A stretch of 64,000 nt of DNA from Candidatus Hydrothermales bacterium (GCA_039630575.1 JBCNUW010000001.1:120473-184472), one strand, 5' to 3'; positions 30,342 to 61,700 are shown, counted from the first letter of the stretch. Numbers and translations: made by a program. Notes: generated by a model not told the origin, from the sequence alone.

Positions 30342-30608
30342 ATGGGAGAAAAAAATTTCTCATTTTTTGAATGTAAAAGTTGTGGAACTCCAGTTGGTAC
30401 AAGGAAAAATAAAGAACCAAACTTCTGTCCGCTTTGTAGAGGCAAAATGGTAAAAATAGAAACGGAAATAGACTTAAAAATAAAAATTTCTTGTCCTGAT
30501 TGTAAAAATGAATTTTTAGTTGAGGAAAATTTTGTTCCCTATAAATGTGTATTTTGTAATTTTACTTTTACTGTTTCACCTAACCGTAGATTTGAAGAGA
30601 GACTCTAA
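30342..30608 (+). CDS. Small double zinc-ribbon protein
   Basis: Four CxxC pairs (CKSC, CPLC, CPDC, CVFC) without His; TATAAT 7 nt before the ATG. Confidence 0.7.
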   Translation: MGEKNFSFFECKSCGTPVGTRKNKEPNFCPLCRGKMVKIETEIDLKIKISCPDCKNEFLVEENFVPYKCVFCNFTFTVSPNRRFEERL

Positions 30609-31573
30609 TAAAGTGTACTAAAAATTTGTATTCTTGAATTCATTTGTTCAACAACATAAACTTTATTGTTCCTAACAAAAATACCAGCTGGTAATCTAAA
30701 TTGACCTGGATCCCAACCGATTCCCTCTATACCAAGATAAACGTTCCCATACTTATCAAAAATCTGAATTCTATGAAGGAAAGCATCTGTTACAAAAATA
30801 AAACCTTTATCGTCTACTGCTATTCCCTTCGGTCTAACAAAAAAACCTGGAGCATTACCTGATTTTCCAAAAACACTTATGACTTCTCCCTTAGTGTTTA
30901 AAATCTGAACCCTGAAGTTCCCCCACTCGCATACATAAACATTACCATCTCTATCAATGTTAATACCTCTAGGATAAAGAAATTCTCCTGGTTTGTTTCC
31001 CTTTTTACCTAATGTGTACAGAAACTGACCATCAAGATTAAAAACTTGAATTGCCATAATGCTATCATCGATGACATATAACCTATTTCTATAATCATCA
31101 ACTGTAAGATTTACAGGTTTATAAAGACCCTTTTTTATTATTAAAGACCCTTCAAATTCAGGAAACTTGATACCAAAAACAACACCAGCTCCAGGATCAG
31201 CTACATAGATCATATTTTTTGCCTCAGAAAAAGCAATCCCTGTTGGTCTTATGAATCTAAAATTACGCGAACCAAGATACCATTTAACAACCTTATTTGT
31301 ACAGTCAATAAAAACAATAGTAGAAAAACCAGGATCAGCTACCCAAATTCTTTCCTTAGTGTCAACATAAATTCCAAAGGGATACTTAAAAAGTCTTATT
31401 TTTTTTACTCCAAGAATTCTATTTAACATTCTCTTTACTATGTTAGTTTCTCCAACTACATCTTCTTTTGTGAATAGAAATTTTTCAAATTTTATTTTTG
31501 GGTCTTCAGGTGGTGGTGGCCAAAATATATCGCTTTTTATCTGAATAAAAATAAGAAAAATTAGAAAATTCAT
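30605..31573 (-). CDS. NHL-repeat six-bladed beta-propeller protein
   Basis: WPPPPEDPKI N-terminal motif; repeated PxGIAVD..G..YV.D...RIQIF units. Confidence 0.9.
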   Translation of the reverse strand: MNFLIFLIFIQIKSDIFWPPPPEDPKIKFEKFLFTKEDVVGETNIVKRMLNRILGVKKIRLFKYPFGIYVDTKERIWVADPGFSTIVFIDCTNKVVKWYLGSRNFRFIRPTGIAFSEAKNMIYVADPGAGVVFGIKFPEFEGSLIIKKGLYKPVNLTVDDYRNRLYVIDDSIMAIQVFNLDGQFLYTLGKKGNKPGEFLYPRGINIDRDGNVYVCEWGNFRVQILNTKGEVISVFGKSGNAPGFFVRPKGIAVDDKGFIFVTDAFLHRIQIFDKYGNVYLGIEGIGWDPGQFRLPAGIFVRNNKVYVVEQMNSRIQIFSTLY

Positions 31574-32202
31574 CTCTTTTCCTCCGGTTTATGAGGATTG
31601 TGACATTCAAAACAATTTTCTTCCTTAAAATGAAAATTATTAAAGTGACATTCCTCACAAAGATCCTCTGATTTTAAAAGTCTATTTACACCTCTGTGAA
31701 TTTTATGACAATTTAAACAAGATAAGACAAAATGTTTTGAAAATGAAATAAAAGTAGAAATTTTGAAATGACATTCTTTGCAAAAGGTTAATTCCTGGTC
31801 TCTTAAAAGAAATTTAGAATCTTTCAGATGGGGATCGTGACAAGTGGTACACTTTATTCCCCTTGTTTTGTCAGTTATAAAACTTTTTCCAACAGGATGA
31901 TTGTTTTCATAATACTCTATTCCTAAAAATATTTTTGATGTTTCTGATATTTCGTAAAACTTTCCAATATTGGGGAACAGGTATATAAGAAAGGTCTTGT
32001 TTGTATGACAATTCATACAGTTAAGGGAAATAAAGTCAAAATCTTTAAAAATCTCTCTTAGCTCCTCATGAGGTTGTATTTTAATTAAAAAAGGTCCTTG
32101 GGCATTATGAGAGTTATGACAAACTTCACAGATTCTTTTACCCTCCTCATTCCTGAAGTCATGAACAAATCTTGAAATTATAAAAAAGATAATTAAGGTC
32201 AT
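31570..32202 (-). CDS. Multiheme c-type cytochrome, 7 CXXCH, with an OmcE-like N-terminal half
   Basis: CEVCH, CMNCH, CTTCH, CKECH, CLNCH, CEECH, CFECH; start at the ATGA overlap (MTLIIFFIIS). Confidence 0.9.
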   Translation of the reverse strand: MTLIIFFIISRFVHDFRNEEGKRICEVCHNSHNAQGPFLIKIQPHEELREIFKDFDFISLNCMNCHTNKTFLIYLFPNIGKFYEISETSKIFLGIEYYENNHPVGKSFITDKTRGIKCTTCHDPHLKDSKFLLRDQELTFCKECHFKISTFISFSKHFVLSCLNCHKIHRGVNRLLKSEDLCEECHFNNFHFKEENCFECHNPHKPEEKR

Positions 32203-32996
32203 TTCTTGTGACAAACAGTACATACCGGTTTGTTTGGCCATTTTAAGTGATAACCAAATCGTGTTCCATGGGGATCATGGCAGCTATTACAGAAGAGGTT
32301 ACTTTTCTCAGCAGGATGATTAGCAACTGGATGATGATAACTATAGAGCTCCTTTTCATGACATAATGTGCATAAAATTTGTATTCTATCCTTTAAAAGC
32401 TTATTTTCCATTGAAGAGTGTGGATCATGGCATATTCCACATTCAAACATGGCATAAGGACTGTGAAGATAAAAATCATCTTTTAATTCGTGACAGTTTA
32501 CACATAATTTTTCTTCCTCAGGTTCCTCAAAGATCCTTTTATGACATTCACTACAATTTGGATCATCAAAAGGTGGGTGAAATTTTAGTCCTTTTTCAAA
32601 TTTTTCTTTGTGACATATAAAACAAGAAAGATCTTCTTTTTTTGATACTCTTTTAAATTCTATATCATGACAAGCTCGACAAATTTTCTCATTTTCACTC
32701 CTATGAAACTTATAGGGCTGAAGTGGAGTTTTGAAATTAAAAGAGGGAAAGAAATAAACTGTAATTATCTTAGATTCAGTTTTTTTATTTTTATCATAGT
32801 AAAGTATAAATTCATTTTTACCTAATTTAAGTTCTAAGATAAAGTGTTTAATATTATCAGCTGAGAAGGAATCATATAACATTTCAGGTTTTGAAATCCA
32901 GGCTTTGTCTGCATCTACTATTATCCTAACAAATCTACTTTTAATGAAAGAAATTTCCGGTGGAATTAAAAGCGAAAATAAAATAGAATTAATCAA
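32199..32996 (-). CDS. Multiheme c-type cytochrome, 8 CXXCH, with an N-terminal non-heme domain
   Basis: CRACH, CFICH, CSECH, CVNCH, CGICH, CTLCH, CNSCH, CTVCH; start at the TTGA overlap (TTG 32996). Confidence 0.9.
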   Translation of the reverse strand: MINSILFSLLIPPEISFIKSRFVRIIVDADKAWISKPEMLYDSFSADNIKHFILELKLGKNEFILYYDKNKKTESKIITVYFFPSFNFKTPLQPYKFHRSENEKICRACHDIEFKRVSKKEDLSCFICHKEKFEKGLKFHPPFDDPNCSECHKRIFEEPEEEKLCVNCHELKDDFYLHSPYAMFECGICHDPHSSMENKLLKDRIQILCTLCHEKELYSYHHPVANHPAEKSNLFCNSCHDPHGTRFGYHLKWPNKPVCTVCHKK

Positions 32997-33877
32997 TATT
33001 CTGCTTTTCCGTGACATGCTGGTCCACAAGTTCCCTTTTTTTCAGTTTTTATGAAATCAAAATTTAAGACATAGTTGTAAGGTCCAAATTTTTTACCACC
33101 CTCAACAAGTGCAAAATTTTTTGAAAAGTGAGGGTTATGACAAAAGGAACAAACTATTCCTTTTTCTCTCTTTACATGAACTTTATGTAAGTTTTCCTCG
33201 CCTCTTTTGAAAGAAGATTTCTCAGAAAAAAGATCTTCCAAATTATGACAATTAAAACATAACTCATACTGAAGATGAGTAAAAAATACATAAGGTTTAT
33301 TTGGATACATTGAGTTTAATAACATGGTGAAATTAGATTGATGAGGATTATGACATGTTATGCAATTTTCAATAGGTGGATGTTTATACTTTTTTACTCT
33401 ATACTGTTCTTCCATTTCCTTATGACAATCAAAACATAGTGAATTAGTTTCCCTTAATAAATATGACCTTTTATCATTTCCATGAACATCATGACAACTT
33501 TTGCATTTACCATCAACAAAGGGCGCATGAAAACTTAATGCAGTTTTTGATAGTTCCTTATGACAGCTTGAACATAAATATGGTAGTTTTTCTCTTAGCA
33601 AAAAGTTCAAAGGTGATGAGTGAGGGTTGTGACAATGCGTGCATTTGTTATCGTTTGGGGGGTGTTTAAATTTTGATTTATTTTCATGACAATTTAGGCA
33701 AATACTGTTAATATTTTCAATCTTTTTAAAGGGGTGTTCACCTTCAAGGTTATGGCATAATGAACAATCTTCTTTCACAGGTTGATGTAAAACTCTTTCT
33801 TCTATCAAAATATCATGACAACCTCTTTCTGTGCAATCCCTTTCTTGTGAGATTAAAAAAATTATTAACATAATCAT
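32993..33877 (-). CDS. Multiheme c-type cytochrome, 9 CXXCH plus CX4CH and CX3CH (paired-CXXCH repeats)
   Basis: CTERGCH, CSLCH, CLNCH, CTHCH, CSSCH, CKSCH, CFDCH, CITCH, CFNCH, CSFCH, CGPACH; repeated H.P...CxxCHxPH.S...LL. Confidence 0.92.
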   Translation of the reverse strand: MIMLIIFLISQERDCTERGCHDILIEERVLHQPVKEDCSLCHNLEGEHPFKKIENINSICLNCHENKSKFKHPPNDNKCTHCHNPHSSPLNFLLREKLPYLCSSCHKELSKTALSFHAPFVDGKCKSCHDVHGNDKRSYLLRETNSLCFDCHKEMEEQYRVKKYKHPPIENCITCHNPHQSNFTMLLNSMYPNKPYVFFTHLQYELCFNCHNLEDLFSEKSSFKRGEENLHKVHVKREKGIVCSFCHNPHFSKNFALVEGGKKFGPYNYVLNFDFIKTEKKGTCGPACHGKAEY

Positions 33878-35451
33878 TTTATCTTAAAATCTCTTTTTAA
33901 AAGAAAGTAAAAAACAAAATTGTGCTCCTCTTTTGGGTAAATCAAATAAATATATTCAAAATTTAATTTTAAATTCAAAACGTTATAATTCCTTTCAAAA
34001 CCGACAGTCAAACTGTTTTCGAGCTTATTTCTAAAGTATAACCTCTCCTCTAGAGAAAAAATATTAAATAGTTTTAAAGGAATTTTAAGTGTAAATTTGA
34101 AAAAACTCCTTGTTAATACCAAAAAATCCGTCCTTATATATTCTTGAAAATAAGATAAATTAAGGGGCATTTGCCTAATTTTAAGATCAATTCTTGTGCG
34201 ATATTCAGTCCAAATATTCATCTTACTATTTAAAAAAGAAAAATTCCTATCAAAATTAAAGTTGAGTGTAATAATATATCTTGGTGAATCGTAAATTAAA
34301 GTTAAATTTGTATTAAAACCAAAAATTTTTTGGTTCCTTACAGGCCATTTATCATTGAAAGCTCTATAGTACAAATTATAGAAAAATTTTAAAAATCTAA
34401 AATTCAAGAAAAAATTTTGCTCAAAAAGACCCCTATTTCCAACCAAATAGCCCCACCCTTTTCCTAACGGATCCTGACTGAAAGAAAAGGAAATATAAGG
34501 AGAAAATGTAAAAAATCTAGGGTAATTTAAAAATTTAAGGTCATATATCTGAGCTACTCTCTCATAAAACCTTGTTCCTCTTGGTAAAGAACCTGTTTCA
34601 AAATCTATAAAGGTACTAGAAATTATTCTATCTGAAAAATACTTCTTAAAACTTGAATTTAAACTTTGAGAGGTGAAAATTTTTGATTTTTTAAAAGAGT
34701 AGTAAAAATCAAAAATGTAATCAAAATTTTTTAATTTAATATAATTAAAATTTGAGTTAGTGTAGCCATAGTTCTTTCTGAATAAATATATTATGTTTAA
34801 CTTGATTTTCCTATCTTTAGTGTTATTGTTGTAATTAAAATTTACATTTTCAAATCCTTGACCATAATCTGGAAGTTCTTTTTTGTAATTGAAATAAAAG
34901 GAATGTTTTTTTAAGGAAAAACTTGAATTAAAACCGAGGGATTTTAAAGTCAATAAGACTTCCTTATTATACGAATAGAAAAAATTAAATTTTGGAAAAT
35001 TACTTAAATTAAGGGACTGCGAGATTGTATAAGTTGATTTTTTTTTAGAAAATAATATTTTATTCTCCCTTTTAAGTTCCTCTGTTTTAAAAGAGAATCT
35101 AAAAGGAAAAGAAGTTTTTGAAAAAATACTAACATCAAGAAAAAAGGGGGATTTTAAAAAAATTTTCTCTTTTTCTTTATCTAAATTTTCCTTAAAAACT
35201 TGCCAAATAAAGTATGTTCTAAAGTCGAAAGATATAAATTCTCTTTTATACACAAAACCATTTATAATTAAGTTTAAATAATTCTCATAATCTTTGTAAA
35301 AGGGTTTTGCTAAAGATCTCTCAAATTTACCAAAAGAAAAATATCTCTCTGAAAAGATGCTTAAGTTAAAATTTGTTATCTCAGAATTTAAATTTTTTAA
35401 AAGAAATAAATGGGGGAGAAGAAATATTCTCCCCCATTTTATCCTAAACAC
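33874..35451 (-). CDS. Putative outer-membrane beta-barrel (porin of a porin-cytochrome complex)
   Basis: 525 aa, signal-like N-terminus, aromatic alternating strands, C-terminal FVFYFLLKRDF; lies between cytochrome genes. Confidence 0.65.
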   Translation of the reverse strand: MFRIKWGRIFLLPHLFLLKNLNSEITNFNLSIFSERYFSFGKFERSLAKPFYKDYENYLNLIINGFVYKREFISFDFRTYFIWQVFKENLDKEKEKIFLKSPFFLDVSIFSKTSFPFRFSFKTEELKRENKILFSKKKSTYTISQSLNLSNFPKFNFFYSYNKEVLLTLKSLGFNSSFSLKKHSFYFNYKKELPDYGQGFENVNFNYNNNTKDRKIKLNIIYLFRKNYGYTNSNFNYIKLKNFDYIFDFYYSFKKSKIFTSQSLNSSFKKYFSDRIISSTFIDFETGSLPRGTRFYERVAQIYDLKFLNYPRFFTFSPYISFSFSQDPLGKGWGYLVGNRGLFEQNFFLNFRFLKFFYNLYYRAFNDKWPVRNQKIFGFNTNLTLIYDSPRYIITLNFNFDRNFSFLNSKMNIWTEYRTRIDLKIRQMPLNLSYFQEYIRTDFLVLTRSFFKFTLKIPLKLFNIFSLEERLYFRNKLENSLTVGFERNYNVLNLKLNFEYIYLIYPKEEHNFVFYFLLKRDFKIK

Positions 35452-35478: not shown

Positions 35479-36111
35479 TTACTTTATATGACAATCAAGG
35501 CAAATTTGACTGTTTGTGGTGTCACCCCTTAAGAAACTATAGGGGGGTTGAGCAACATCTACATTATGGGGATCATGGCAAGTAGAGCAAGTCATCACTG
35601 AATCAGCACCAGGTTGTATACCTGAAAAATTATAGAGTGGATAACCCCATGTTGAAGGAGGGTTAAATTTAGTAGGCGGCAATCTTCCCGGTGCCACATC
35701 CATATCGACTGGATGAGAGTAAATAAGAGTATCATTTGTTCCACTTGTAACATCAGGAGGATCTTGAACAGCTGCACCAACATTCCTTGGACCAAATGAG
35801 TAAAGTGTCCCAAGATCAGCTCTTGTTTGAGTTCCATCATGACAGGAAAGACAAGCATAACTTATCCAAGAGGCTCTTGTCATTGGGTCTGTATAGGTTC
35901 CGTTATATAGAGCTGAAATAGTGGGTACATAAACCCTATTCCAAAGATAATAAAAATTTTGACTGGGATTAGCATTGTGCGGTGTATGGCAGTATATGCA
36001 AACTTGTCCTGCATTGGGTCTGTTAAAATCATGCCTACTTCCTACAATTGTTGCATGAAGCCAAATATAAAAGGTTGAAAGAACTAGAACTACTATAATC
36101 ATTTTCTTCAT
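35479..36111 (-). CDS. Secreted tetraheme cytochrome c, OmcE (nanowire)-like
   Basis: Sec signal; motif order GSRHD, QVCIYCHTPHNA, LWNR, SYACLSCHDG, HPV, PLY, CSTCHDPH, FLR, SQICLDCHIK; eight His in the mature chain; SD AGGAGGT. Confidence 0.85.
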   Translation of the reverse strand: MKKMIIVVLVLSTFYIWLHATIVGSRHDFNRPNAGQVCIYCHTPHNANPSQNFYYLWNRVYVPTISALYNGTYTDPMTRASWISYACLSCHDGTQTRADLGTLYSFGPRNVGAAVQDPPDVTSGTNDTLIYSHPVDMDVAPGRLPPTKFNPPSTWGYPLYNFSGIQPGADSVMTCSTCHDPHNVDVAQPPYSFLRGDTTNSQICLDCHIK

Positions 36112-36135
36112 AAACTTTACCTCCTAACATATAAA

Positions 36136-36148
36136 GGGACTTGAACCC
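36136..36148 (-). promoter_or_regulatory. T-loop-like leader motif GGGTTCAAGTCCC upstream of the cytochrome operon
   Basis: 3-bp GC stem plus 7-nt TTCAAGT loop, 10 nt upstream of the SD. Confidence 0.6.
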
Positions 36149-36204: not shown

Positions 36205-36861
36205 TTAAAGAATTATCTTTATAATTGTAACAAAGAGAGAATAAAAAAACCAAAGAAAAAAAGATATGAAAATTCCCTTTTTTCTCTCAATATCACCGAT
36301 GTGATGAAGGGCAAGACCATAAAGAAAAGTCGCCCATAATGTAAAAAATCCAGCCTGTTCGAGGAAAATTCTAAAAAAATTTTTCTCTGATAGGAACAAT
36401 AAAAAGATAGAAAAATTAAGTTTCACATTAGGATTCCCGGTCAAAAGAGCTATAGGAAAAGCAACAATTGATCCTAAAAGATTTATTGCATATATATGAA
36501 TAGCCGAACTGAAAAAAGCAATAAAATCACCTTTTCCTTTAAAAAGTGTAGAGATTAAAAAAAATATAAATCCCAAAGTAAGAGTTTGGATAAAAAAACC
36601 AAATATACTCGAAAAGATTGTCAAAATATAGAATAAAGGTGAACCCATAAATTCCATGGCACGTTCAATAGCCTCTTCTGGTAGATTCCTTTCACTTAAT
36701 ATACTCTCTTTGTTTGGTAAAATTACAAATTGGATATAAAGGAGAGTAATAATTAGAAAAGTAATTAATATTGTAGCAGAGGGTAAAAGAAGAGGTTTTT
36801 TATCCTTTATAGTTTTCAAGGCTTCATTCGGATTATAAAAGATTTTTAAGATTAGATTCAT
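36205..36861 (-). CDS. Yip1-family membrane protein
   Basis: IFYNPNEALKTIKDK start, about five TM segments, FKGKGDF motif. Confidence 0.7.
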   Translation of the reverse strand: MNLILKIFYNPNEALKTIKDKKPLLLPSATILITFLIITLLYIQFVILPNKESILSERNLPEEAIERAMEFMGSPLFYILTIFSSIFGFFIQTLTLGFIFFLISTLFKGKGDFIAFFSSAIHIYAINLLGSIVAFPIALLTGNPNVKLNFSIFLLFLSEKNFFRIFLEQAGFFTLWATFLYGLALHHIGDIERKKGIFISFFLWFFYSLFVTIIKIIL

Positions 36862-39253: not shown

Positions 39254-40303
39254 ATGTTAGCCATCCTAATTATAAGTTTACACTATCTTGCAAGTATTGG
39301 TTATAAGGGATTAGGAGTTGATTTTTCAATAGTTAATGAGGAAATATGGGTGAGTTTTCCAATAGAGAACAAAGTTTTAAACTATTCTACATTTCAAGAG
39401 TTTTCTATAAATGAACCAACAGTAATTCTTTACAAAAAGCCATTTACTTATGTAGTAAGTAATTTGGAAGATAAACTTTATACTTTTGAAAACAATTCTC
39501 TTTACTACAGTATAAACATACCAGAAGGTGACTATGTATCAGGCTGTCTACATGAGAATCAAATTTATCTTTTAAGTAGAACTCCAGCAAATATAGTAAA
39601 AATAAATGAAAATTTTGTTTTCACAGTTATGCAAGTTCCTTCCTATAAACCAATTGATTTTAAACCCTTTAAGAATGAGTTTTATATTCTTGATAGAAAG
39701 GCTTCAGCACCAAGTTTAAGAATTTTAAAAATAAATGAAGAGGGTACCATAGTTGGCACACTACTCGACTTACCGGGAGTCTTAGGGGGAGGTTTTGAAA
39801 TTGCGGAAATAAATGGAAATAAAATTTTACTTTTAACAAATGCATTGATGGGTAGAATTTATATTTACTTTTTAGATCCATTAATAAAAATAGATTCATT
39901 TGGAAGCTATGGTGATTCAATTTTTGAATTTAAGACACCAACAAAAATCAAGTATATAAATCAAAAAATTTATATTTTAAACCAAAGAAATTCAAGAATT
40001 GATATATATACTTTTGACAATTTTTATACACCAGAAATAATAGTTTTAAAAGAAAATCCATTTGATAACATAAAGGTATCTAAGGAAGAAATTTTTTTTG
40101 ATTTAAAGTTACCTGAGGGAAATTATGATCTTAACATATTCTCTATTGATGGAAGAAAAATTTTAGAATTAGACAATTTTATTACAGAAAAGGGTTATTT
40201 AAGCTTTAGGATTCCTTTTTCTTTTAAAAGAGGAGTTTATTTTATTATGCTTAAAGAAAAACAAAACAAATTTTTGATAAGAAAGGTTTTTAAAATAAAA
40301 TGA
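39254..40303 (+). CDS. Secreted beta-propeller (NHL-like) protein with a T9SS/FlgD-like C-terminal domain
   Basis: SFGSYG...EFKTPT...NSRIDIY NHL-like unit; CTD YDLNIFSIDGRKI...GVYFIMLK...RKVFKIK; SD GGGAGGT. Confidence 0.7.
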   Translation: MLAILIISLHYLASIGYKGLGVDFSIVNEEIWVSFPIENKVLNYSTFQEFSINEPTVILYKKPFTYVVSNLEDKLYTFENNSLYYSINIPEGDYVSGCLHENQIYLLSRTPANIVKINENFVFTVMQVPSYKPIDFKPFKNEFYILDRKASAPSLRILKINEEGTIVGTLLDLPGVLGGGFEIAEINGNKILLLTNALMGRIYIYFLDPLIKIDSFGSYGDSIFEFKTPTKIKYINQKIYILNQRNSRIDIYTFDNFYTPEIIVLKENPFDNIKVSKEEIFFDLKLPEGNYDLNIFSIDGRKILELDNFITEKGYLSFRIPFSFKRGVYFIMLKEKQNKFLIRKVFKIK

Positions 40304-42234
40304 AAAAAATTGCAATTTTGAGTTCTTTTATCTTTTTAGAGATTTTTGCACTTTCTTATCCTCATAATGACAACTCACCAATAAAAGATTGGGATGTAAA
40401 GTGTAAGTCTTGCCATAGTCCCCATAATGCTTTAGGACCTTATCTTGGTTTAGTCAATGGAAATTACAATATGTGTTATACATTATGTCACAATCCAAAT
40501 GGTGATGCAAAAAACTTTGTAATTGAAGAAAGCAAAAAGGCAATACCCGGAACAACTGGAATTCATCACGCTTTTAATGTTCCTGGAGACAACCAAGGCT
40601 ATGGAGCATCCACATCCTCAGCAGTTTATAAGAACTATTATCCGGGAACTGGCATCGATGCAAATAAGCTTATCTGTTCAACCTGTCATGAACAGCACAA
40701 TCACAATACTGGAAAACCTTTTCTTGTTGCTTCTAATCCTGAGATGATGTGCAGAGACTGTCATTCTCAAAGGGTTCAAAGTTCACGCCCCTTTACAACT
40801 CATCCAGTAGGTATTCCTATACCCTCATCTAATCCGAATTATGTAATACCACAAAACTTACCACTTGTTTATGAAAACCAAGTGGGTTGTATGACCTGTC
40901 ACGATGTTCATTTCGTCTATTCAGATACAAGTGTCTATGGAACTGCGACCTATGGCTCTAAAACATCTTTAACTGACAATACCAAAAACTGGCCAACTAA
41001 TATGTTTGTAGGGTGGGAAATAAAAATTTATCCAGCTGGAAATGATTCAGCAAACTGGTTTCAAATAAGAACAATTATATCGAATACTTTAAATACAGTC
41101 ACATGGTCAAATCCCCTCTATGGATCAGGGATAGTTCCTGGTAACAGGTATGTCATAAGGAAAAAAGGTTCTGGAAACGGTTATCTTCTTAACCAGGTGA
41201 TGCATAAATCTCCAACAAGTAATCTTTGTGGTCACTGCCATAGAAATTTTTCAATTACCGCCTCTCATTTTACAAACACAAACGCAAAGTGGCCAGGCGG
41301 TGAATATGGAACTGATTACGCTTACGTTGATGCTCTTGGAAATTTAGTACCTCCTGCAAGAAGAAGTAGTGCCAGCATAAAAGCAGCCTTACCGACTTCC
41401 TTAAGAAACTCTTGTTTCAACTGTCATTTTCCTCATGGCTGGAGAGATCCTGCAACTGGTTTCTATTATCCAAAACTTTTGGTTGATAGAGAAGAATTTT
41501 TATGTTTTACCTGTCATGATGCAACAGGACCTTCTTCTAAAAATGTCAAGTTAAAATTTGACAGAGCAACAAGATGGGTAACTGCTCCGGTAGGACCTAA
41601 TAACAATTTAAATCTAAACGATAGACACGATATACAAGATTTAGCTCAATCACGTTCAGGTGCTAAAATAGAATGCACTGATTGTCATGATCCTCATAGA
41701 GATAGTGGGTCAATGCCTCTAAAAAGGGATCCAGATCCAACAGATAGTAGAATACCAGGAACAGGTCAAATTTTACCTGGTGGAGACTTTCTTACTGAGT
41801 GGTGTCTTGATTGTCACGATGGTAGTTTTCCTCCAACCATAACCCCACCTACAAGGTCCCTTGTAAATATTAGAAATACATATATCAATAGTGATGTGCA
41901 TGGGCTTATTGTTGGCAATCCAAGATTGAAAGCAGGATACGGTTGGGCGAGTAATCAAATAGTACCATGTGTAGCTTGTCACGCAAGGAAACATATGTCT
42001 TTTAAAAATGATTTATTCCAACTTAAAGACACAGTCTTTTCAAGAGATGGAACAAGATCTATACCAGATGATGACGGACATAACGGTGATAGATATGATG
42101 TTTTAAATAACAACACTCTTGATACAGAAATAAATGGTTATGATTTTTGCAATACATGCCATACAAGAAGCATGGGAAGCAACAGGGAAAATTGTTTTGC
42201 ATCAGGCTGTCACCATCATGGAGATGATTTTTGA
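40300..42234 (+). CDS. Large secreted multiheme cytochrome c, 11 CXXCH plus CX3CH and CX4CH
   Basis: Signal peptide; CKSCH, CYTLCH, CSTCH, CRDCH, CMTCH, CGHCH, CFNCH, CFTCH, CTDCH, CLDCH, CVACH, CNTCH, CFASGCH. Confidence 0.92.
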   Translation: MKKIAILSSFIFLEIFALSYPHNDNSPIKDWDVKCKSCHSPHNALGPYLGLVNGNYNMCYTLCHNPNGDAKNFVIEESKKAIPGTTGIHHAFNVPGDNQGYGASTSSAVYKNYYPGTGIDANKLICSTCHEQHNHNTGKPFLVASNPEMMCRDCHSQRVQSSRPFTTHPVGIPIPSSNPNYVIPQNLPLVYENQVGCMTCHDVHFVYSDTSVYGTATYGSKTSLTDNTKNWPTNMFVGWEIKIYPAGNDSANWFQIRTIISNTLNTVTWSNPLYGSGIVPGNRYVIRKKGSGNGYLLNQVMHKSPTSNLCGHCHRNFSITASHFTNTNAKWPGGEYGTDYAYVDALGNLVPPARRSSASIKAALPTSLRNSCFNCHFPHGWRDPATGFYYPKLLVDREEFLCFTCHDATGPSSKNVKLKFDRATRWVTAPVGPNNNLNLNDRHDIQDLAQSRSGAKIECTDCHDPHRDSGSMPLKRDPDPTDSRIPGTGQILPGGDFLTEWCLDCHDGSFPPTITPPTRSLVNIRNTYINSDVHGLIVGNPRLKAGYGWASNQIVPCVACHARKHMSFKNDLFQLKDTVFSRDGTRSIPDDDGHNGDRYDVLNNNTLDTEINGYDFCNTCHTRSMGSNRENCFASGCHHHGDDF

Positions 42235-55722: not shown

Positions 55723-58700
55723 CTAAATTTTTAAAACTTTAAATCTATTTTTTATTCCGTTAACCTCAACATCTATAAAATAAACTCCTCTTTTAAGATT
55801 ATTTATTTTTAATTTATGGGTACCTAAGTCTAAACTTTTATTTATGCTCTTTATCTTTTTTCCGGAAGCATCATAAATATTTATGTAGATCTCTGATTTT
55901 CTATCTAAAATGAATTCAATTTCTATATTTTTAAAAGAAATACTATTTATCTTAATTAGCTCAGTTACCCTTCCTTTTTCTCCTTGGATATTTGATAGAA
56001 TCTCTTTTCTAGGTACCCAGATTGGCTCAAAATATACTTTTCCTTTTAAAGGATCATCATAAAAATCATAAATTAAAAGTGATATTGAATCTACATTCTG
56101 TGTCCCCCACCAGTTTCTCTGTGCCTCTATATCAAACCTTGTGTCATTATAAAGATTATAATTTAAATTATAACATATATAATTATGCCCATTCTTTAAT
56201 TTCGGCTTTGAATTTTCACTTATATATATTCCTATTTTGTTATTCATTATATAAGATTTATCAATGTTTATTTCAGAAGTTCCCTTATACAAAACACCAA
56301 TTTCATTCTCTTTTACACTTGTTTCTTTTATATGTCCTTTACCTTTTAAAAGATAAAAACCTATGTTATTTAAAGAAATATTTGAATTCTCAATTTCTAA
56401 TTCCTTACCATAAAAGTATATTCCGTAATTTGAATTTCTAATTTGTAAATTCTTTAATTTTAAATTTTCATTTTTTAAAAATTCTATACCCTTATAAGAA
56501 AAATTAATTCTCAAGTTTTTGTAATTATGGGAAGATTTTTCAAATGTTCTATCTTCTTCATCCATTTCATATTTTTTAAGTTCGTTCTCTTCCCTCATTT
56601 TAAATACTATTCCATAGTAATCACATTTTTCTTTTATATACCCATCAGATGTGAATAAAGAGTTTTTTGCAGAAAGTTTTCCATAAACTATAAGCTCAGA
56701 TAAAGTATCATTCTTTCCAGTTTTTAAAGCATCAAACCTCTTTATAAATCTTATTTTTGTTCCTTCTTTAATTTTAAGATGAACATTTTTAGGAATAATT
56801 AGATCTCCACCAATACTTACAATGCCATCCCATGTTGTTTTAATTTTTATTTTTCCCCATATATAAAATTTTTTGAAATCAACATCACCTTTAATTCTTG
56901 ATTTTATAAATGTTGAATCTTTGCTATTCCAGAAGTTTCCCTGTGCATATATTTTATACTGAGTTAAATTTATAATATCATAATTTCCGTTTCCATAGAT
57001 CCTATTTGCTCCATCATCAAGAGTATCAGGATTATAAACATTTCCTAATGTTAAAAGTGGGTTATTTTTAACTAAAACACCGGTGCTTTCATTTTCAAAT
57101 ATATGATTCCAACTTAAAATGGCAAACCCGCTATCAATTTCAGCTTTTATTCCTATTTTATTTAAATTTATTTTATTTGCAAATATAAAGGAGTTCCCTC
57201 TAAAAATTTCTATTCCTTCTTGGTTTTCACTTATCTCATTTTGAACAATGTAAACGCTTTCAGCTTTTAAGGATAAACCCTTTATAGCATCTTTTATAAT
57301 AGAATATTCAATCTTACCTTTACTTTTTGGAAGATACCTTATTCCAAACCATCTTCCTGTATCTTGTATTTCAAATTTTATTCTTTTTTCCTTTTTGCCA
57401 TTGGCATAAAATTCTCCGTAAATTATTATTTCTATATGGTTTGGATCAATTCCAAGGTTAAAAATATCTTTATTTGAAATTATAAATCTTGTTCCCTCTT
57501 TAACATCAACTCTTACACTTTCTGGAATTACAATATCTCCTATTAAAAGAATTTCACCTTGTAAAGTGGTATCACGAGGTATAACTCCAAATTCTCCTTC
57601 TTTTATATAAATAAACCCTGTATCAGGAAACCTTTTTAAATTATTTTTTAAATCCCATGCTTTTAAATAAAATTTTATATTTTGAGAAAACTTGGGAATT
57701 GTAAAGAAGAAAGTATCCAAATGAGTGCTATCATGAGTTGCTTTATATAAAAACTTGGGAACATAAATAGAATCATTTTCTACTTTTAATCCATCATAAA
57801 TCCTTGTTTTAAATATGTATCTATCTGGAAGTTTTATAATGTTTGTATCAGAAAATCTTGGTGGAAGATAATCAAATATGATAGTATAGGGATTTCCAAT
57901 AAATTCCCTTTTCGGTTCTCTTAACAAAGTTCCGATGAAATATGTGTAAATATTTTCGTTAATTGCTAAGCTATCTATAAAAGATGTATCTTTTACACTT
58001 TTTATTAAAAAAGATGCACCACCACCTTCTCTGTAAACATTATATTTTAAAACTGGAGAAAGAGAATCTGATAGATATTTAATTTTTGGTCTTATAAGTA
58101 TATTACCGTATATAAATTTTTTCCATTCACCAAACTTTTTATAATATGAATAAACCGGGTTTTCCCCGTCTGCATAAAATATAATTTCTGACGGAAATAT
58201 AGTTATACTTAATGTATCTTGTATCTCTTTATTTATTGAAAATTCAAACCAACCAGAGGTATCCCCAGGCACTTCAAATGTATAGTTTTCATTTTGAATT
58301 TTTACATAAAGATAGGAAGGAAGAGTTAAAGGATTTTTCAAATAAACTTTAATTTTTGAAAGGAGACCTTTGCCCCTTAAAGAAGGCATTTCAAATTTCA
58401 GTGTATCATAGAAGCTTTCAAAAATAGGAATTCCTTTATCTTTAATAAATTCTTCTGCTACATTTTGCCAATATATTCTTGGTAAAGAATTATAAATTTC
58501 ATAAGAAGATATATTTGCTTGAAGTCCTTTAAGGACAAATATTTTATTTTCACCATAAACAGGCTCCCTTCTTTTATTCCCTTTTATATCTCTATAAACC
58601 CCATAAAATTCAATTTCATTATTTCCATTAAATTTTCCTAATTCATAAATAAGTAATGTATCATTTATTTTCTTACTATTTATTTTACTCCATGAGATTT

Positions 58701-61700
58701 CACCTTTTATCCTATAAAAGAGTGTATCAAGTATTTTGTTATCATCTTTTATTTTTGCCTTTATAAAAATTGAGTCATCCTCATAGATTCTCTTTGGGTA
58801 AATAAAAGATACTTCCGGTGGAAATGTGTCAATCAATCCAACATTTATCCATTTACCAGAATAAAAAACAAGTACAGAGTCTGCATTAAGTTTATATCTT
58901 AAAAACGCGTTTCCTTTTGAAATATTCGGAAATTCAAAAGAAAACCTTAAAAGGTTTATTCCTTTTTTCAAAAATAGTGTGTCCTTTAAGACCCTTATCG
59001 TATCATCTTTTAAAATATCAAAACATATATAAGTTGTTTCAGGTGGAATATCAAAAACATGTGCCTGCATGCTCACTCTTAAAGTATCGTAAGGATAGAT
59101 TGTATCAGGTGATGTAGTTAAATTTCTTATTCTAACATCTATCCCTTTTAATTTTATTTCAAATTTTCTCTGTCTTATAATCGTATCCGAAGAAAAATTA
59201 TAATTAATTTCGTAAAAATCAGTTAAACCCTTTTTAGGAAGCATTTTATAAAAGAAAGTATCTTTTTCTATATAAGAGGTGATTGAATCATTATCCCAGA
59301 ATTTAATCTTTACATTTCCGCCTATTTTTGTTGAAACATTTAATTTCATTATTTCACCGAAGAAATATTCAGGCTTTTCAGGGTAAACTGCGATTACACT
59401 ATCACCTTCATATAAGGGATATTCTCTTAGAAGTATTCCGTTCATTGATGGCCATAAATAAATCCCATAAAATATGTTAACGGGCAAGGAATCTAATGCG
59501 AATTTGAACTTAACTATTTCTTCAGGTGGAGGAAACTTTTTAATAGTTGTATCATCTCCTTTTATTATCTTTAAAGAATCAACTTTTATTGTATCATTTT
59601 GAGGTATCAAAATTTTAAACTGGTAATATTTTATAGGTGGATAAAGTTTTTCTTCCCATCCAGTTTCTGCTTTCCCATAAATATTACATTTTCTGAATTT
59701 TAAGATCTTTTGTGAAGGAGGATAGAGCACACCACTTATTGTATCTTTTTGATTCGCTGAAAATAGTGGTGAAACATAAATTCCTTGTGAATCAGGATTT
59801 AAAATTTTTAATCCAGTAGAATCAATCGTTATATTTTTAATAAATCCTGTGACAAATAAAAGTGTATCCTTTTCATAAAAGGGTAGAGAAATCTTTGAAA
59901 GTATCTTCGGGTTAAGCTCGTTTAAATTTTTAATCTTTAAATAAAATCTTGCAGTATCGTTCTTTGAATAAAACTTTTTATCAGTATAAGGAAGCACAGA
60001 AATACGATAACTTCTATATTTTACTATTTTCCATAATGTTTCACCATTTAAATTGAATTCCATTGTATAAGTCCCCTCAGGAATATATAATGGGTTTCTT
60101 AAATAGAAAGTGTCAGAATAATGAGTGTTTACCGGAAGATAAAATTCCGTGAAATTGAAATCTTCAAACCATTTTGCTTCCAAAAAACCTTTTCCTTTAC
60201 TTGTCCCTTTATTTTTAATTATAAAAGGAACTGAAATTAAAGAGTCAATAGCATTTGTATAAAATGTATCCTGTGTAATAAGATAAAACTGGGGCTTAAA
60301 CTTTTTCCTCCATACCTTTGAAATTAAAACATTATCACTTAAATTTAAAATATCAAGTTTTACATTATACTCGCCTTTTTCCCATTGAGGATAGATAGAA
60401 AAAATAATTGTGTCATTTTTAGAGAAATATTTTTTAATTGTATCTTTCCCTGCTGGATGCGTAAGTATTGCTTTTAGAAATTGTGAAGTTGCATAAGGAA
60501 GATAAATAGGAAAAATAAATTTCATAAGTCCTTCTTCATTCGCCCCTTTTAAAATAATTGTATCAATTTCTACATAGTTTACAAGACCTACATAAAGTGT
60601 GCTCTTTGAGGAATCAAGGAGCATTTCTGAGCTTTTTTCCTTTAAAATTCCGGAAAGCGTATAAACCGCAGAATAAGGTACATTGCAAGTAAGAATAAAT
60701 TCCTTTTCAGAGTTTGCTTCAACTTCATCTTCTTTTGAATAAGACTTTATTATCTCCCCATCTTTTTTTATGTAAAAATATGTTTTATATAAAGTATTTT
60801 TACTTGAAGGATTTATAATTCTATATCCAATTGTAAAGGAAGTATCTTCATAGATTAAGCTTGTATCAATTTTTAAAATACCTCCACCTTTAAAATAAAG
60901 TCTTTTAAGATTATATAACTTATTCTGTGTATATGTTGAAAGCATAAGATAGACTGTATCGTCTTTTGCAAATTTAGGGATTAAATGGTAGCTCTTGTTA
61001 ATCTTTTCACCAATTTTTATATAAAATGTATCTATTATTGTATCTTTCTGGAATATAAGTTTTGAAAATATTTTTCCTTCGGATGCAAAAGGGTTTAAAG
61101 TTAGCCTAAAAAATATTGGGTCATAATAGAATATATCCTGTGAAAATGCTTCAGGAATTATATCTATATTCTGGGGTAATATTTTTAATGAATCTTTTAA
61201 ATAGATTATGTTATTTTCATTTTGGATTAAATAGTTTTTATTTCCTTTAAAATATGCAAAGAGTTTTATAATCTCTTTATCATTAAATATTTTAAATTCA
61301 TAATTTTCAATTTCATTTGTATCAATCAAAGTCTCTTTCTTTAAAAGTGTATCGTTATCACAGATAAATCCTATTTCACCCAAGGAAGGTACTTGGGATA
61401 GATTCCATATCTTTAAATTTATTAGTGATGAGTCACCCATAAAAGGATGTCCTTGAAAAGCTGGTGAAATTTTGATTCCTAGTTCTTGTGGTACAACATC
61501 AAAGAAATAATAAGAATTTATATTTAATGGGAAATCATCTTTACCAAGTAAAGAAAGCTTTGCTATATATTTACCGGGCGGGAAATAGTAGGAAGACGGA
61601 ATAGAGAATGTTGTATCCCATGAACTATTTGGTTTAAAATTATATTTAAATATTTCTTTTATATAAATTTCATCAATTTTAATAGAAGTATACTCTGCAT

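What the first reader, a model, noticed from the sequence alone, without database searches (positions are those of the whole stretch)
35479..36111. Lead gene reproduces the OmcE motif skeleton and has an extracellular-type composition
Seen: after a Sec signal, the order is HD, Q.CxxCHTPHNA, LWNR, SxxCxSCHDG, HPV, PL[YF], CxxCHxxH, FLR, SxxCLxCHxK-stop. From my recollection of G. sulfurreducens OmcE this is the same order, including the terminal CHxK. The mature chain has exactly eight His for four hemes, as expected for all-bis-His ligation. It has only two Lys in a very Lys-rich proteome and one of the strongest SDs in the window (AGGAGGT), which fits an abundant polymer subunit. It also carries three D-S/T-hydrophobic motifs (DTL, DSV, DTT), possible O-glycosylation sites.
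Basis: partly seen in the sequence, partly recalled or inferred. Interest (0 to 1): 0.85.

Follow-up and report, generated by a model that had tools for sequence, protein, structure and literature searches.

The report
OmcE-type nanowire cytochrome gene, WOR-3
This gene of an uncultured hot-spring bacterium encodes a small secreted four-haem protein clearly related to OmcE, the building block of Geobacter's conductive protein "nanowires", and it sits in the matching helper-gene cluster, so it is a credible but unproven wire subunit of a known kind.

Summary
Window 35479-36111 (-) encodes a 210-aa protein with a Sec-type leader, four CxxCH sites and exactly eight His in the mature chain. It matches the solved OmcE filament subunits over nearly its whole length (7TFS E 2.4e-14, 9YUQ E 1.9e-13; family profile E 5e-56). 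OmcE is also the only significant fold match. The eight haem-ligand His and the four CxxC pairs are invariant or nearly so in 71 relatives. The low Lys content (4th lowest of 1228 ORFs) and the full AGGAGGT ribosome-binding site are real, but low Lys is a family trait.

The gene heads an operon with a predicted large outer-membrane beta-barrel, three multihaem cytochromes and an NHL beta-propeller. A second propeller and an 11-haem cytochrome lie nearby. This is the published accessory set of omcE clusters. A strong terminator-like hairpin follows the gene in all six WOR-3 loci examined, as expected for a major subunit.

Polymerisation, export and glycosylation are not shown. It is a new member of a known kind, in a phylum (WOR-3, 6 of 272 genomes) absent from the published list. 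This scan had already reported the same system in another WOR-3 genome.

The parts
35479..36111 (-). omcE-like gene: 210-aa precursor, about 190-aa mature tetrahaem c-type cytochrome (4 CxxCH, 8 His)
36119..36125 (-). Shine-Dalgarno AGGAGGT, 7 nt before the ATG
   Evidence: 3 of 47 window ORFs have the full 7-mer
36136..36148 (-). T-arm-like hairpin GGGTTCAAGTCCC in the leader, 25 nt before the ATG; similar motif at the same place in three orthologous loci
35398..35439 (-). terminator/attenuator-like hairpin (13-bp stem, 6 G-C pairs, 6-nt loop, T-rich tail) 40 nt after the omcE-like stop; it overlaps the first codons of the next ORF as called
33874..35451 (-). 525-aa protein with no Pfam/NCBIfam family; predicted large outer-membrane beta-barrel (true start uncertain)
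32993..33877 (-). 294-aa multihaem cytochrome, 9 CxxCH
32199..33029 (-). 276-aa multihaem cytochrome, 8 CxxCH
31570..32241 (-). 223-aa multihaem cytochrome, 7 CxxCH
30605..31573 (-). 322-aa NHL-repeat six-bladed beta-propeller; last gene of the operon; no Cys in its N-terminal 70 residues, so no lipobox
39254..40303 (+). 349-aa probable second NHL-type beta-propeller with a T9SS-type C-terminal tail (weak evidence); overlaps the next gene by 4 nt
40300..42234 (+). 644-aa cytochrome with 11 CxxCH, Lys/Glu-poor, with an OmcE-like internal module; its homologue lies inside the omcE operon in two other WOR-3 genomes

Best explanation
The gene encodes the subunit of an OmcE-type tetrahaem cytochrome filament ('nanowire') of a thermophilic WOR-3 bacterium.

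Shown:
- It is a full-length member of the OmcE family.
- It has four haem-attachment sites and the eight conserved His needed for bis-His ligation of four haems.
- It carries a leader peptide.
- It heads an operon with a predicted large outer-membrane barrel, three multihaem cytochromes and an NHL propeller.
- It has a strong ribosome-binding site and is followed by a terminator-like hairpin.
- The genome has CcmC/CcmF-type haem-attachment genes and membrane cytochromes of the c-plus-b fusion type.

Inferred:
- The precursor crosses the inner membrane by Sec and receives four haems from the Ccm system.
- It is passed through or docked on the neighbouring barrel with help from the propellers.
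- It stacks head to tail outside the cell, with one His of each subunit completing the haem ligation of the next subunit, as in the solved OmcE filaments. The N-terminal H27 is my candidate for that His.
- Electrons would flow from quinol-oxidising membrane cytochromes through the periplasmic 7-, 8- and 9-haem cytochromes and the barrel into the filament, and on to a mineral or a partner cell. The direction of flow is not determined.
- The hairpin after the gene would give an excess of subunit mRNA over mRNA for the accessory genes.
For: Sequence and fold:
- phmmer against PDB: 7tfs_A (OmcE filament) E 2.4e-14 over residues 28-210; 9yuq_N E 1.9e-13 over residues 2-210. I take 9yuq to be the D. 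soudanensis OmcE bundle, from its 16 chains, its 218-aa length and the paper; no call named the PDB code.
- A profile of 71 relatives that includes the query hits both chains at E 5.3e-56 and 1.1e-55 over the full length.
- Invariant or near-invariant in those 71: H27, C38, C41, H42, H45, C87, C90, H91, H133, C175, C178, H179, H182, C204, C207, H208.
- AF2 model (pLDDT 67.6): the only Foldseek PDB hit with E <= 0.001 is 7tfs (E 1.1e-4, TM 0.46/0.48). VIA-align gives Z 8.5, rmsd 4.3 A, 161 residues aligned.

Gene cluster:
- PMC13712944 (sections 6-9 and passages read) defines nanowire-type omcE clusters by two multihaem cytochromes, two beta-propeller lipoproteins, OmcE and a large beta-barrel. 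It also states that the subunit interface leaves a haem that needs a His from the next subunit.
- Here: NHL propeller (Pfam E 1.6e-22); cytochromes with 9, 8 and 7 CxxCH.
- The 525-aa protein is modelled as an all-beta meander of about 26 strands. 34 PDB hits have E <= 0.001, and those listed are outer-membrane barrels such as LptD, Occ porins and TonB-dependent transporters. The Atlas structure search gives TM 0.77-0.82 to outer-membrane proteins of about 600 aa and 0.61 to MtrB/PioB.
- An NHL322 homologue lies in 68 of 78 loci from other phyla that hold an OmcE-like gene.
- The six-gene operon is conserved in three related genomes. In two more distant WOR-3 genomes the homologue of the 11-haem cytochrome, preceded by an unassigned 339/341-aa ORF, sits inside the same operon.

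Expression signals and electron supply:
- Full SD 7-mer in 3 of 47 ORFs, this gene among them.
- Hairpin plus T-run directly after the stop codon in 6 of 6 WOR-3 loci, with different sequences. Across phyla, 36 of 79 OmcE-like genes have such a hairpin, against 31 of 200 other cluster genes.
- Two PF01578 matches, CcmF-like and CcmC-like. Membrane cytochrome c/b561 fusions and a NapC/NirT-like 18-haem protein lie on contig C4.
Against: - No result here shows a polymer, an extracellular location or expression.
- No RNA data set was available for this organism.
- The monomer model is only of moderate confidence (pLDDT 67.6; the N-terminal arm and residues 101-127 are below 50).
- The 525-aa barrel shows no sequence homology to the barrels next to omcE in five Desulfuromonadales/Geobacteraceae-type loci (hhalign probability 0.1-0.5%). 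It shows only a partial match (135 columns, probability 86-91%) to the large ORFs next to OmcE-like genes in 35 other loci.
- Neither propeller has a lipoprotein Cys, unlike the published 'beta-propeller lipoproteins'.
- The authors of PMC13712944 stress that OmcE-like tetrahaem genes are very widespread, and that only two have been seen as filaments.
- Eight His for four haems would also fit a monomer with all ligands in cis.
Confidence: 0.62

Rival explanations
1. It is an OmcE-family tetrahaem cytochrome that does not polymerise. It would act as a monomeric periplasmic or cell-surface electron carrier that docks on the neighbouring barrel/multihaem-cytochrome conduit, as the outer partner of a porin-cytochrome complex.
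For: - The family is huge and mostly uncharacterised: 2721 proteins at E <= 0.001 and 2805 cluster representatives. Only two members have been solved as filaments (PMC13712944).
- The gene lies directly beside a barrel and three periplasmic-type, Lys-rich multihaem cytochromes, the layout of porin-cytochrome conduits.
- NHL propeller plus multihaem cytochrome clusters were described as outer-membrane cytochrome complexes, without filaments, in Desulfovibrio ferrophilus (PMC5815863, passages read).
Against: - All features that PMC13712944 used to pick likely nanowire formers are present (barrel and propeller next to the gene).
- The invariant N-terminal HD motif, on an arm modelled with low confidence in the monomer, fits a ligand given in trans.
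- The strong SD plus a conserved terminator after the gene fit a protein made in large excess over its partners, which a 1:1 conduit component would not need.
Confidence: 0.3
2. The system, filament or not, works in the inward direction. It would take up electrons from reduced minerals, a cathode-like surface or a partner cell, and would not discharge respiratory electrons.
For: - Related NHL-propeller/multihaem clusters were linked to electron uptake in D. ferrophilus IS5 (PMC5815863, passages read).
- OmcE-like plus NHL clusters occur in lineages labelled as sulfur or iron oxidisers (Sulfurimonas, Thiobacillaceae, Sedimenticola).
- A survey of 181 WOR-3 genomes describes hydrogenotrophic and fermentative metabolism and does not contain the words multiheme, extracellular electron or iron (PMC12542636, term search only).
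Against: Nothing in the sequence fixes a direction. The solved OmcE filaments come from metal- and electrode-reducing bacteria (PMC13712944 abstract). CbcL-like quinol-linked cytochromes work in outward transfer in Geobacter (my own knowledge).
Confidence: 0.3
3. It is a chance ORF or an annotation artefact with haem-like motifs.
For: None found.
Against: Orthologues at 82-83% and 70% identity lie in conserved operons in related genomes. There are full-length matches to solved structures. GC3 is native.
Confidence: 0.01

Closest known systems
OmcE of Geobacter sulfurreducens
   Same: - Similar size (232-aa against 210-aa precursor).
- Same order of four CxxCH sites and four extra His, and a C-terminal CHxK end.
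- Alignment over residues 28-210 at E 2.4e-14.
- Best and only significant fold match.
- Encoded with multihaem cytochromes, NHL propeller(s) and a large barrel (PMC13712944 section 8).
   Different: - Only about 28-29% identity.
- Shorter loops (about 190 mature residues).
- Different gene order: here omcE comes first and the propeller last.
- The barrel is 525 aa, against 752-811 aa in Desulfuromonadales-type loci, with no detectable sequence homology.
- No block of glycosyltransferase genes follows the cluster in the window.
- The host is a 30% GC hot-spring WOR-3 bacterium.
OmcE homologue of Desulfuromonas soudanensis WTL (bundled filaments; I take PDB 9YUQ to be this entry)
   Same: Alignment over residues 2-210, including the leader and the N-terminal HD motif, at E 1.9e-13. 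It has a minimal cluster without glycosylation genes (PMC13712944 section 8).
   Different: The loops that mediate bundling are not conserved among homologues in general (PMC13712944 section 7). Whether bundles form here cannot be judged.
NHL-propeller/multihaem outer-membrane cytochrome clusters of Desulfovibrio ferrophilus IS5 (PMC5815863)
   Same: NHL beta-propellers are encoded beside large multihaem cytochromes, as with orf349 plus the 11-haem protein and the NHL322 operon here.
   Different: That work did not describe an OmcE-type tetrahaem subunit or filaments. I did not compare the sequences directly.
OmcS (PDB 6EF8) and the archaeal filaments PcECN/AvECN
   Same: These are 'insulated' cytochrome filaments with the same haem stacking and, for OmcS, a His given to the neighbouring subunit (PMC9473688, PMC12954529 passages). 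There is a weak family-profile hit to OmcS (E 3e-7, no stretch significant on its own).
   Different: Six haems in OmcS; no fold or full-length sequence similarity.

Membership tests
OmcE-family tetrahaem cytochrome | Full-length sequence similarity to solved OmcE subunits | tested here: met
   7tfs_A E 2.4e-14 (residues 28-210) and 9yuq_N E 1.9e-13 (residues 2-210). A family profile that includes the query gives E 5.3e-56 and 1.1e-55.
OmcE-family tetrahaem cytochrome | Four CxxCH motifs plus four further conserved His (eight His for four bis-His haems) | tested here: met
   CxxCH at 38, 87, 175 and 204, with eight His in the mature chain. All eight are invariant or at least 90% conserved in 71 relatives. 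68 of the 71 have four CxxCH, and 31 of the 71 have exactly eight mature His.
OmcE-family tetrahaem cytochrome | OmcE fold (mostly coil wrapped round a linear haem chain) | tested here: met
   The AF2 model was built without haems (pLDDT 67.6, pTM 0.62). Foldseek finds 7tfs as the only hit with E <= 0.001 (TM 0.46/0.48). VIA-align gives Z 8.5, rmsd 4.3 A, 161 residues aligned. Model confidence is moderate, so haem geometry was not assessed.
OmcE-family tetrahaem cytochrome | Secretory leader peptide | tested here: inconclusive
   The N-terminus MKK plus a hydrophobic stretch plus LHA|T aligns with the leaders of relatives. No signal-peptide predictor was available.
Nanowire-type omcE gene cluster (criteria of PMC13712944) | Large outer-membrane beta-barrel encoded next to the gene | tested here: met
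   The 525-aa ORF lies directly downstream. AF2 gives an all-beta meander of about 26 strands (pLDDT 62.6). 34 Foldseek hits have E <= 0.001, and those listed are outer-membrane barrels, with low TM of 0.25-0.35. The Atlas gives TM 0.77-0.82 to outer-membrane proteins of about 600 aa. Homology to the Desulfuromonadia barrel was not detected.
Nanowire-type omcE gene cluster (criteria of PMC13712944) | Beta-propeller lipoprotein(s) in the cluster (two in the minimal clusters) | tested here: inconclusive
   One clear NHL propeller (Pfam E 1.6e-22). A second probable one is orf349 (Atlas TM about 0.65 to NHL propellers, features score 0.93). Neither has a Cys near the N-terminus, so neither is a lipoprotein. 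orf349 has a weak T9SS-tail match instead (Pfam E 0.0086, below the cut-off).
Nanowire-type omcE gene cluster (criteria of PMC13712944) | At least two multihaem cytochromes in the cluster | tested here: met
   Three in the operon (9, 8 and 7 CxxCH), plus an 11-CxxCH protein 4 kb away.
Cytochrome nanowire (functional class) | Head-to-tail polymer with a haem ligated by a His of the adjacent subunit | not testable with these tools
   The single multimer job gave no verdict (see Tried and rejected). Model coordinates cannot be inspected here.
Cytochrome nanowire (functional class) | Extracellular location and conductivity | not testable with these tools
   This needs cell fractionation, EM and electrical measurements.
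Glycosylated OmcE (Geobacter type) | Surface glycosylation and a glycosyltransferase gene block after the cluster | tested here: inconclusive
   Three D-S/T-hydrophobic sites against 0.79 expected (P about 0.045); the two sites properly tabulated are confined to the closest relatives. No glycosyltransferase gene lies among the ORFs flanking the cluster that were scanned. Whether this motif is used in WOR-3 is unknown.

The most novel reading that the evidence does not exclude
A lineage of thermophilic hot-spring WOR-3 bacteria, in a phylum described so far as fermentative, hydrogen-metabolising or microaerophilic, builds a compact, heat-stable OmcE-type conductive filament. It is fed by Geobacter-like membrane and periplasmic cytochromes. 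The machinery is adapted to an FCB-type cell envelope: the accessory propeller carries a T9SS-type tail in place of a lipid anchor, and the subunit may be O-glycosylated at D-S/T-hydrophobic sites. The 11-haem cytochrome with an OmcE-like module serves as the filament's base or cap.
Probability: 0.3. Interest if true: 0.55.

Novelty: new member of a known kind. Interest (0 to 1): 0.35.

Why it matters
Cytochrome nanowires have been solved from very few organisms, and only two OmcE filaments are known. The latest survey lists cluster-associated OmcE homologues in five phyla, and WOR-3 is not among them (PMC13712944 section 7). If this one forms wires, it would add a thermophilic, very AT-rich lineage. 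It would also add one of the smaller subunits (about 190 residues), which could be a robust scaffold for bioelectronics. It would suggest that some WOR-3 bacteria respire or exchange electrons with minerals or partners, a trait missing from current genome surveys of the phylum. The terminator directly after the subunit gene, enriched across phyla, is a simple genomic mark that could help separate likely filament subunits from the many other small tetrahaem cytochromes.

Tried and rejected
- Multimer modelling: two copies of residues 21-210, with alignment A1 and four haems, gave 'no answer' (ipSAE 0.00 in both runs; controls not run). This is no evidence for or against binding.
- Expression: no RNA holder was listed. 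Two DNA runs of one hot-springs study hold the stretch.
- Sequence homologues of the barrel: the search for homologous proteins gave only 2 hits (41-43% identity). tblastn gave 0 of 78 loci. hhalign to the five Desulfuromonadales-type barrels gave probability 0.1-0.5%. hhalign to the two distant WOR-3 barrels gave 0.1%.
- orf349 against the propeller-position ORFs of G087/G073: no significant phmmer match.
- Sigma-70 promoter scan: 33 sites found against 33.1 expected, so it is uninformative.
- Gene tree of 85 OmcE-like proteins (quick method): the window's clade sits on a long stem (1.49) and is not sister to the other WOR-3 pair. Deep branches are open, so no donor can be named.
- Foreign origin as the explanation for the high gene GC: rejected, because GC3 is native.
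- ResB (PF05140): no match in the 94.7%-complete genome. Ccm-type genes were found instead.
- Papers: the original OmcE structure paper could not be read. The supplements of PMC13712944 could not be read, so its full list of homologues, which could include WOR-3, was not seen. The first search for related loci attempt with 71 sequences was not accepted for lack of a conserved stretch.

Full report
The ORF at 35479-36111 (minus strand) encodes 210 residues. They are HD at 27-28, GQVCIYCHTPHNA, LWNR, SYACLSCHDG, HPV at 133-135, PLY, CSTCHDPH, FLR and SQICLDCHIK followed by the stop codon. There are four CxxCH sites (38, 87, 175, 204) and nine His. One His (H19) lies in the hydrophobic leader, MKKMIIVVLVLSTFYIWLHA|T. 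I judged that cleavage site by eye and from the family alignment, because no signal-peptide predictor was available. The mature chain of about 190 residues therefore has eight His for four haems.

**Composition.** The protein has 4 Lys in 210 residues and 2 in the mature chain. The median for 1228 genome ORFs of at least 200 aa is 10.4% Lys, and only three of those ORFs are poorer in Lys. It has no Glu and is rich in Thr, Pro, Asp and Ser. Two qualifications apply:
- Low Lys is a property of the whole family (median 2.4%, range 0.9-5.9% in 71 relatives). It is not special to this lineage.
- The gene's raised GC (39.5% against 30.6% for the window) comes from its amino-acid composition. GC3 is 0.242, like its neighbours at 0.17-0.25, so the gene does not look recently acquired.

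**Ribosome-binding site and glycosylation motifs.** The AGGAGGT lies 7 nt before the ATG. It is one of only 3 full 7-mers among 47 ORFs in the window. There are three D-S/T-hydrophobic sites, against 0.79 expected (P about 0.045). Sites 170 and 197 carry the motif in only 4 of 71 aligned relatives, all among the closest ones. My tabulation for site 127 was one column off, so its family count was not obtained.

**Is it OmcE-like?** Yes, by four lines of evidence.
- A single-sequence phmmer search of all PDB chains gives two significant hits. These are 7tfs_A, the G. sulfurreducens OmcE filament (E 2.4e-14, residues 28-210 against 41-232), and 9yuq_N (E 1.9e-13, residues 2-210 against 2-218). 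The identity of 7TFS is confirmed in PMC12954529 (passages read). I take 9yuq_N, a 218-aa chain present in 16 copies, to be the D. soudanensis OmcE bundle described in PMC13712944.
- I aligned 71 near-full-length relatives, picked from the lists. Long multi-domain hits were left out. In this alignment H27, C38, C41, H42, H45, W57, C87, C90, H91, G93, H133, P134, H179 and H182 are invariant. C175, C178, C204, C207 and H208 are at least 90% conserved.
- A profile of this alignment matches both OmcE chains over the full length, at E 5.3e-56 and 1.1e-55. The match includes the N-terminal 'KHDLS' stretch.
- An AlphaFold2 model built without haems is of moderate confidence (pLDDT 67.6, pTM 0.62). 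Its only Foldseek PDB hit with E <= 0.001 is 7tfs (E 1.1e-4, TM 0.46/0.48). VIA-align gives Z 8.5, rmsd 4.3 A over 161 residues.

**Size and spread of the family.**
- 2721 proteins match at E <= 0.001 in the 115-368 aa band.
- 2805 cluster representatives match, 523 of them at E <= 1e-10.
- In species-representative genomes, 406 matched stretches encode relatives.
- The 85 proteins I placed in a tree carry 18 different phylum labels.

**Gene context.** The gene leads a tightly packed minus-strand operon:
- the omcE-like gene;
- a 525-aa protein with no family (33874-35451);
- cytochromes with 9, 8 and 7 CxxCH (294, 276 and 223 aa);
- a 322-aa NHL six-bladed propeller.

[quoted passage not shown] AF2 gives an all-beta meander of about 26 strands (pLDDT 62.6). 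Of its Foldseek hits, 34 have E <= 0.001, and those listed are LptD, Occ porins, TonB-dependent transporters and similar barrels, at low TM of 0.25-0.35. The ESM Atlas model of the same protein aligns at TM 0.77-0.82 with outer-membrane proteins of about 600 aa, and at 0.61 with MtrB/PioB.

Four kilobases away on the other strand lie two more genes. The first is a 349-aa protein that looks like a second NHL-type propeller with a T9SS-type tail (Atlas; Pfam Por_Secre_tail E 0.0086, below the cut-off). It overlaps a 644-aa cytochrome with 11 CxxCH by 4 nt.

This is the parts list that PMC13712944 (sections 7 and 8 read) gives for omcE nanowire clusters: two multihaem cytochromes, two beta-propeller lipoproteins, OmcE and a large beta-barrel. 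That paper used the presence of the barrel and the propeller to pick out likely wire-formers among the many OmcE-like genes.

**Conservation of the context.** In 78 loci from other organisms that hold an OmcE-like gene, tblastn at E <= 1e-5 found these window proteins:

| Window protein | Loci with a homologue (of 78) |
|---|---|
| NHL propeller | 68 |
| 9-haem cytochrome | 44 |
| 8-haem cytochrome | 37 |
| 7-haem cytochrome | 28 |
| 11-haem cytochrome | 19 |
| barrel, orf349, Yip1 gene, methyltransferase | 0 each |

A large non-cytochrome ORF sits beside the OmcE-like gene in many of these loci. One sequence cluster of such ORFs covers 35 of the 103 candidates I collected. The window's barrel family matches that cluster only partly: hhalign probability 86.5% with three sequences and 91.3% with six, E about 1e-6, over 135 columns. 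It does not match the five Desulfuromonadales/Geobacteraceae-type barrels at all.

Within the phylum, 6 of 272 genomes (4 of 110 genera, own genome included) have a match at E <= 1e-5. Three relatives in the same family keep the same six-gene order, at 82-83% and 70% subunit identity. In two genomes of other families the order is omcE-like, a 536/532-aa ORF, a 339/341-aa ORF, a 14-haem homologue of the window's 644-aa protein, and then further cytochromes. In one of these two genomes an NHL propeller completes the set. This supports counting the window's orf349 and 11-haem pair as part of the same system.

**Signs of a major subunit.** Forty nucleotides after the stop codon lies a hairpin with a 13-bp stem, six G-C pairs, a 6-nt loop and a T-rich tail (35439-35408). 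This is conspicuous in a 30% GC genome. A comparable hairpin with a T-run, of different sequence, follows the omcE-like stop in all six WOR-3 loci I examined.

Across phyla, a hairpin of -10 kcal/mol or stronger with a T-run lies within 110 nt after 36 of 79 OmcE-like genes. The figure for the other recognisable cluster genes is 31 of 200. At -14 kcal/mol the counts are 30 of 79 against 14 of 200. The control genes are mostly internal to operons, so this shows only that transcription often ends or is attenuated right after the subunit gene. Together with the strong SD, it fits a product made in excess over its accessory proteins, as with pilin-type major subunits. That analogy is from my own knowledge.

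The hairpin overlaps the first 15 codons of the barrel ORF as called, so the true start of that gene is uncertain.

**Electron supply.**
- The 1.89-Mb genome (94.7% complete) has 13 ORFs with at least two CxxCH, in three clusters.
- It has two PF01578 matches, consistent with CcmF and CcmC, and no ResB match.
- On contig C4 there is a 16-haem cytochrome fused to a cytochrome b561 domain, two further b561 proteins paired with 9-haem cytochromes, and an 18-haem NapC/NirT-like protein. Their resemblance to Geobacter's CbcL-type quinol oxidases rests on my own knowledge.
- A complete path from quinol to the cell surface is therefore plausible. Its direction is open.

**What remains unshown.** Polymerisation, export, conductivity, expression and glycosylation are all untested. 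The solved OmcE interface leaves one haem that needs a His from the next subunit (PMC13712944 discussion; PMC9473688 passages). Eight His and four haems fit that arrangement, but they would also fit a monomer. I could not learn from the papers available which His is donated. H27 on the N-terminal arm is my inference.

**Organism and novelty.** The nearest database protein (83% identity) is labelled 'candidate division WOR-3 bacterium'. The DNA occurs in two runs of one hot-springs metagenome study. Earlier notes of this scan also call the genome WOR-3/Hydrothermales.

PMC13712944 lists cluster-associated OmcE homologues in Thermodesulfobacteriota, Pseudomonadota, Aquificota, Campylobacterota and Nitrospirota. 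WOR-3 is not named, but I could not read the supplement. A survey of 181 WOR-3 genomes contains none of the words multiheme, extracellular electron or iron (PMC12542636, term search). Library searches for WOR-3 combined with multihaem/extracellular electron transfer, iron reduction or nanowire terms turned up no report of such a system. Two papers hold both 'WOR-3' and 'nanowire', and I saw them only in the listing.

The same kind of cluster was already reported by this scan in another WOR-3 genome and in many other lineages. My verdict is a real, well-supported new member of a known family and system, of moderate interest.

Noticed in passing
window 36136-36148 (-): A T-arm-like hairpin, GGGTTCAAGTCCC, lies 25 nt before the omcE-like ATG. 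Similar motifs sit at the same place in three orthologous loci (L085, L089, L086). Most of the four other copies in the window also lie shortly before start codons (e.g. 52055, 20789, 16150). The pattern occurs 129 times in the genome, counting both strands.
   Followed up: partly
window 40300-42234 (+): The 11-CxxCH, 644-aa cytochrome is also poor in Lys (4.5%) and Glu (2.2%), like the subunit. Its residues 440-521 match the N-terminal half of the 9yuq OmcE chain (E 7e-7; BLASTP pieces). It could be a surface cytochrome, or a base or cap for the filament.
   Followed up: partly
window 36205-36861 (-): A Yip1-domain membrane protein is encoded just upstream of the omcE-like gene, here and in all three orthologous loci (L085, L086, L089). 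It is found in none of the 78 loci from other phyla. Its role is unknown.
   Followed up: partly
G000 contig C4, 43498-52508 (locus L092): A second cytochrome cluster: a 16-haem c-type cytochrome fused to a cytochrome b561 membrane domain, an 18-haem NapC/NirT-like protein, two b561 proteins each paired with a 9-haem cytochrome, a VIT-family protein and a 4-haem c554-like protein. These are probably inner-membrane quinol-linked electron gates.
   Followed up: partly
locus L023 (record labelled Thermoplasmata archaeon): This locus holds a bacterial-type OmcE-like gene with an NHL propeller and a large ORF of the barrel cluster. Its subunit groups at 100% support with one from a Nitrospinota record. 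This suggests mis-binning or gene transfer.
   Followed up: no
window 55723-63849 (-): A very long ORF (2708 aa, or 2758 aa if it runs off the window end) was seen in the ORF list and not examined.
   Followed up: no
loci L040, L019, L046, L055, L012 and others: Many genomes carry two or three OmcE-like paralogues in one locus. Several 590-850-aa cytochromes with 10-11 haems, encoded after an NHL propeller, also hit the OmcE-like query.
   Followed up: no
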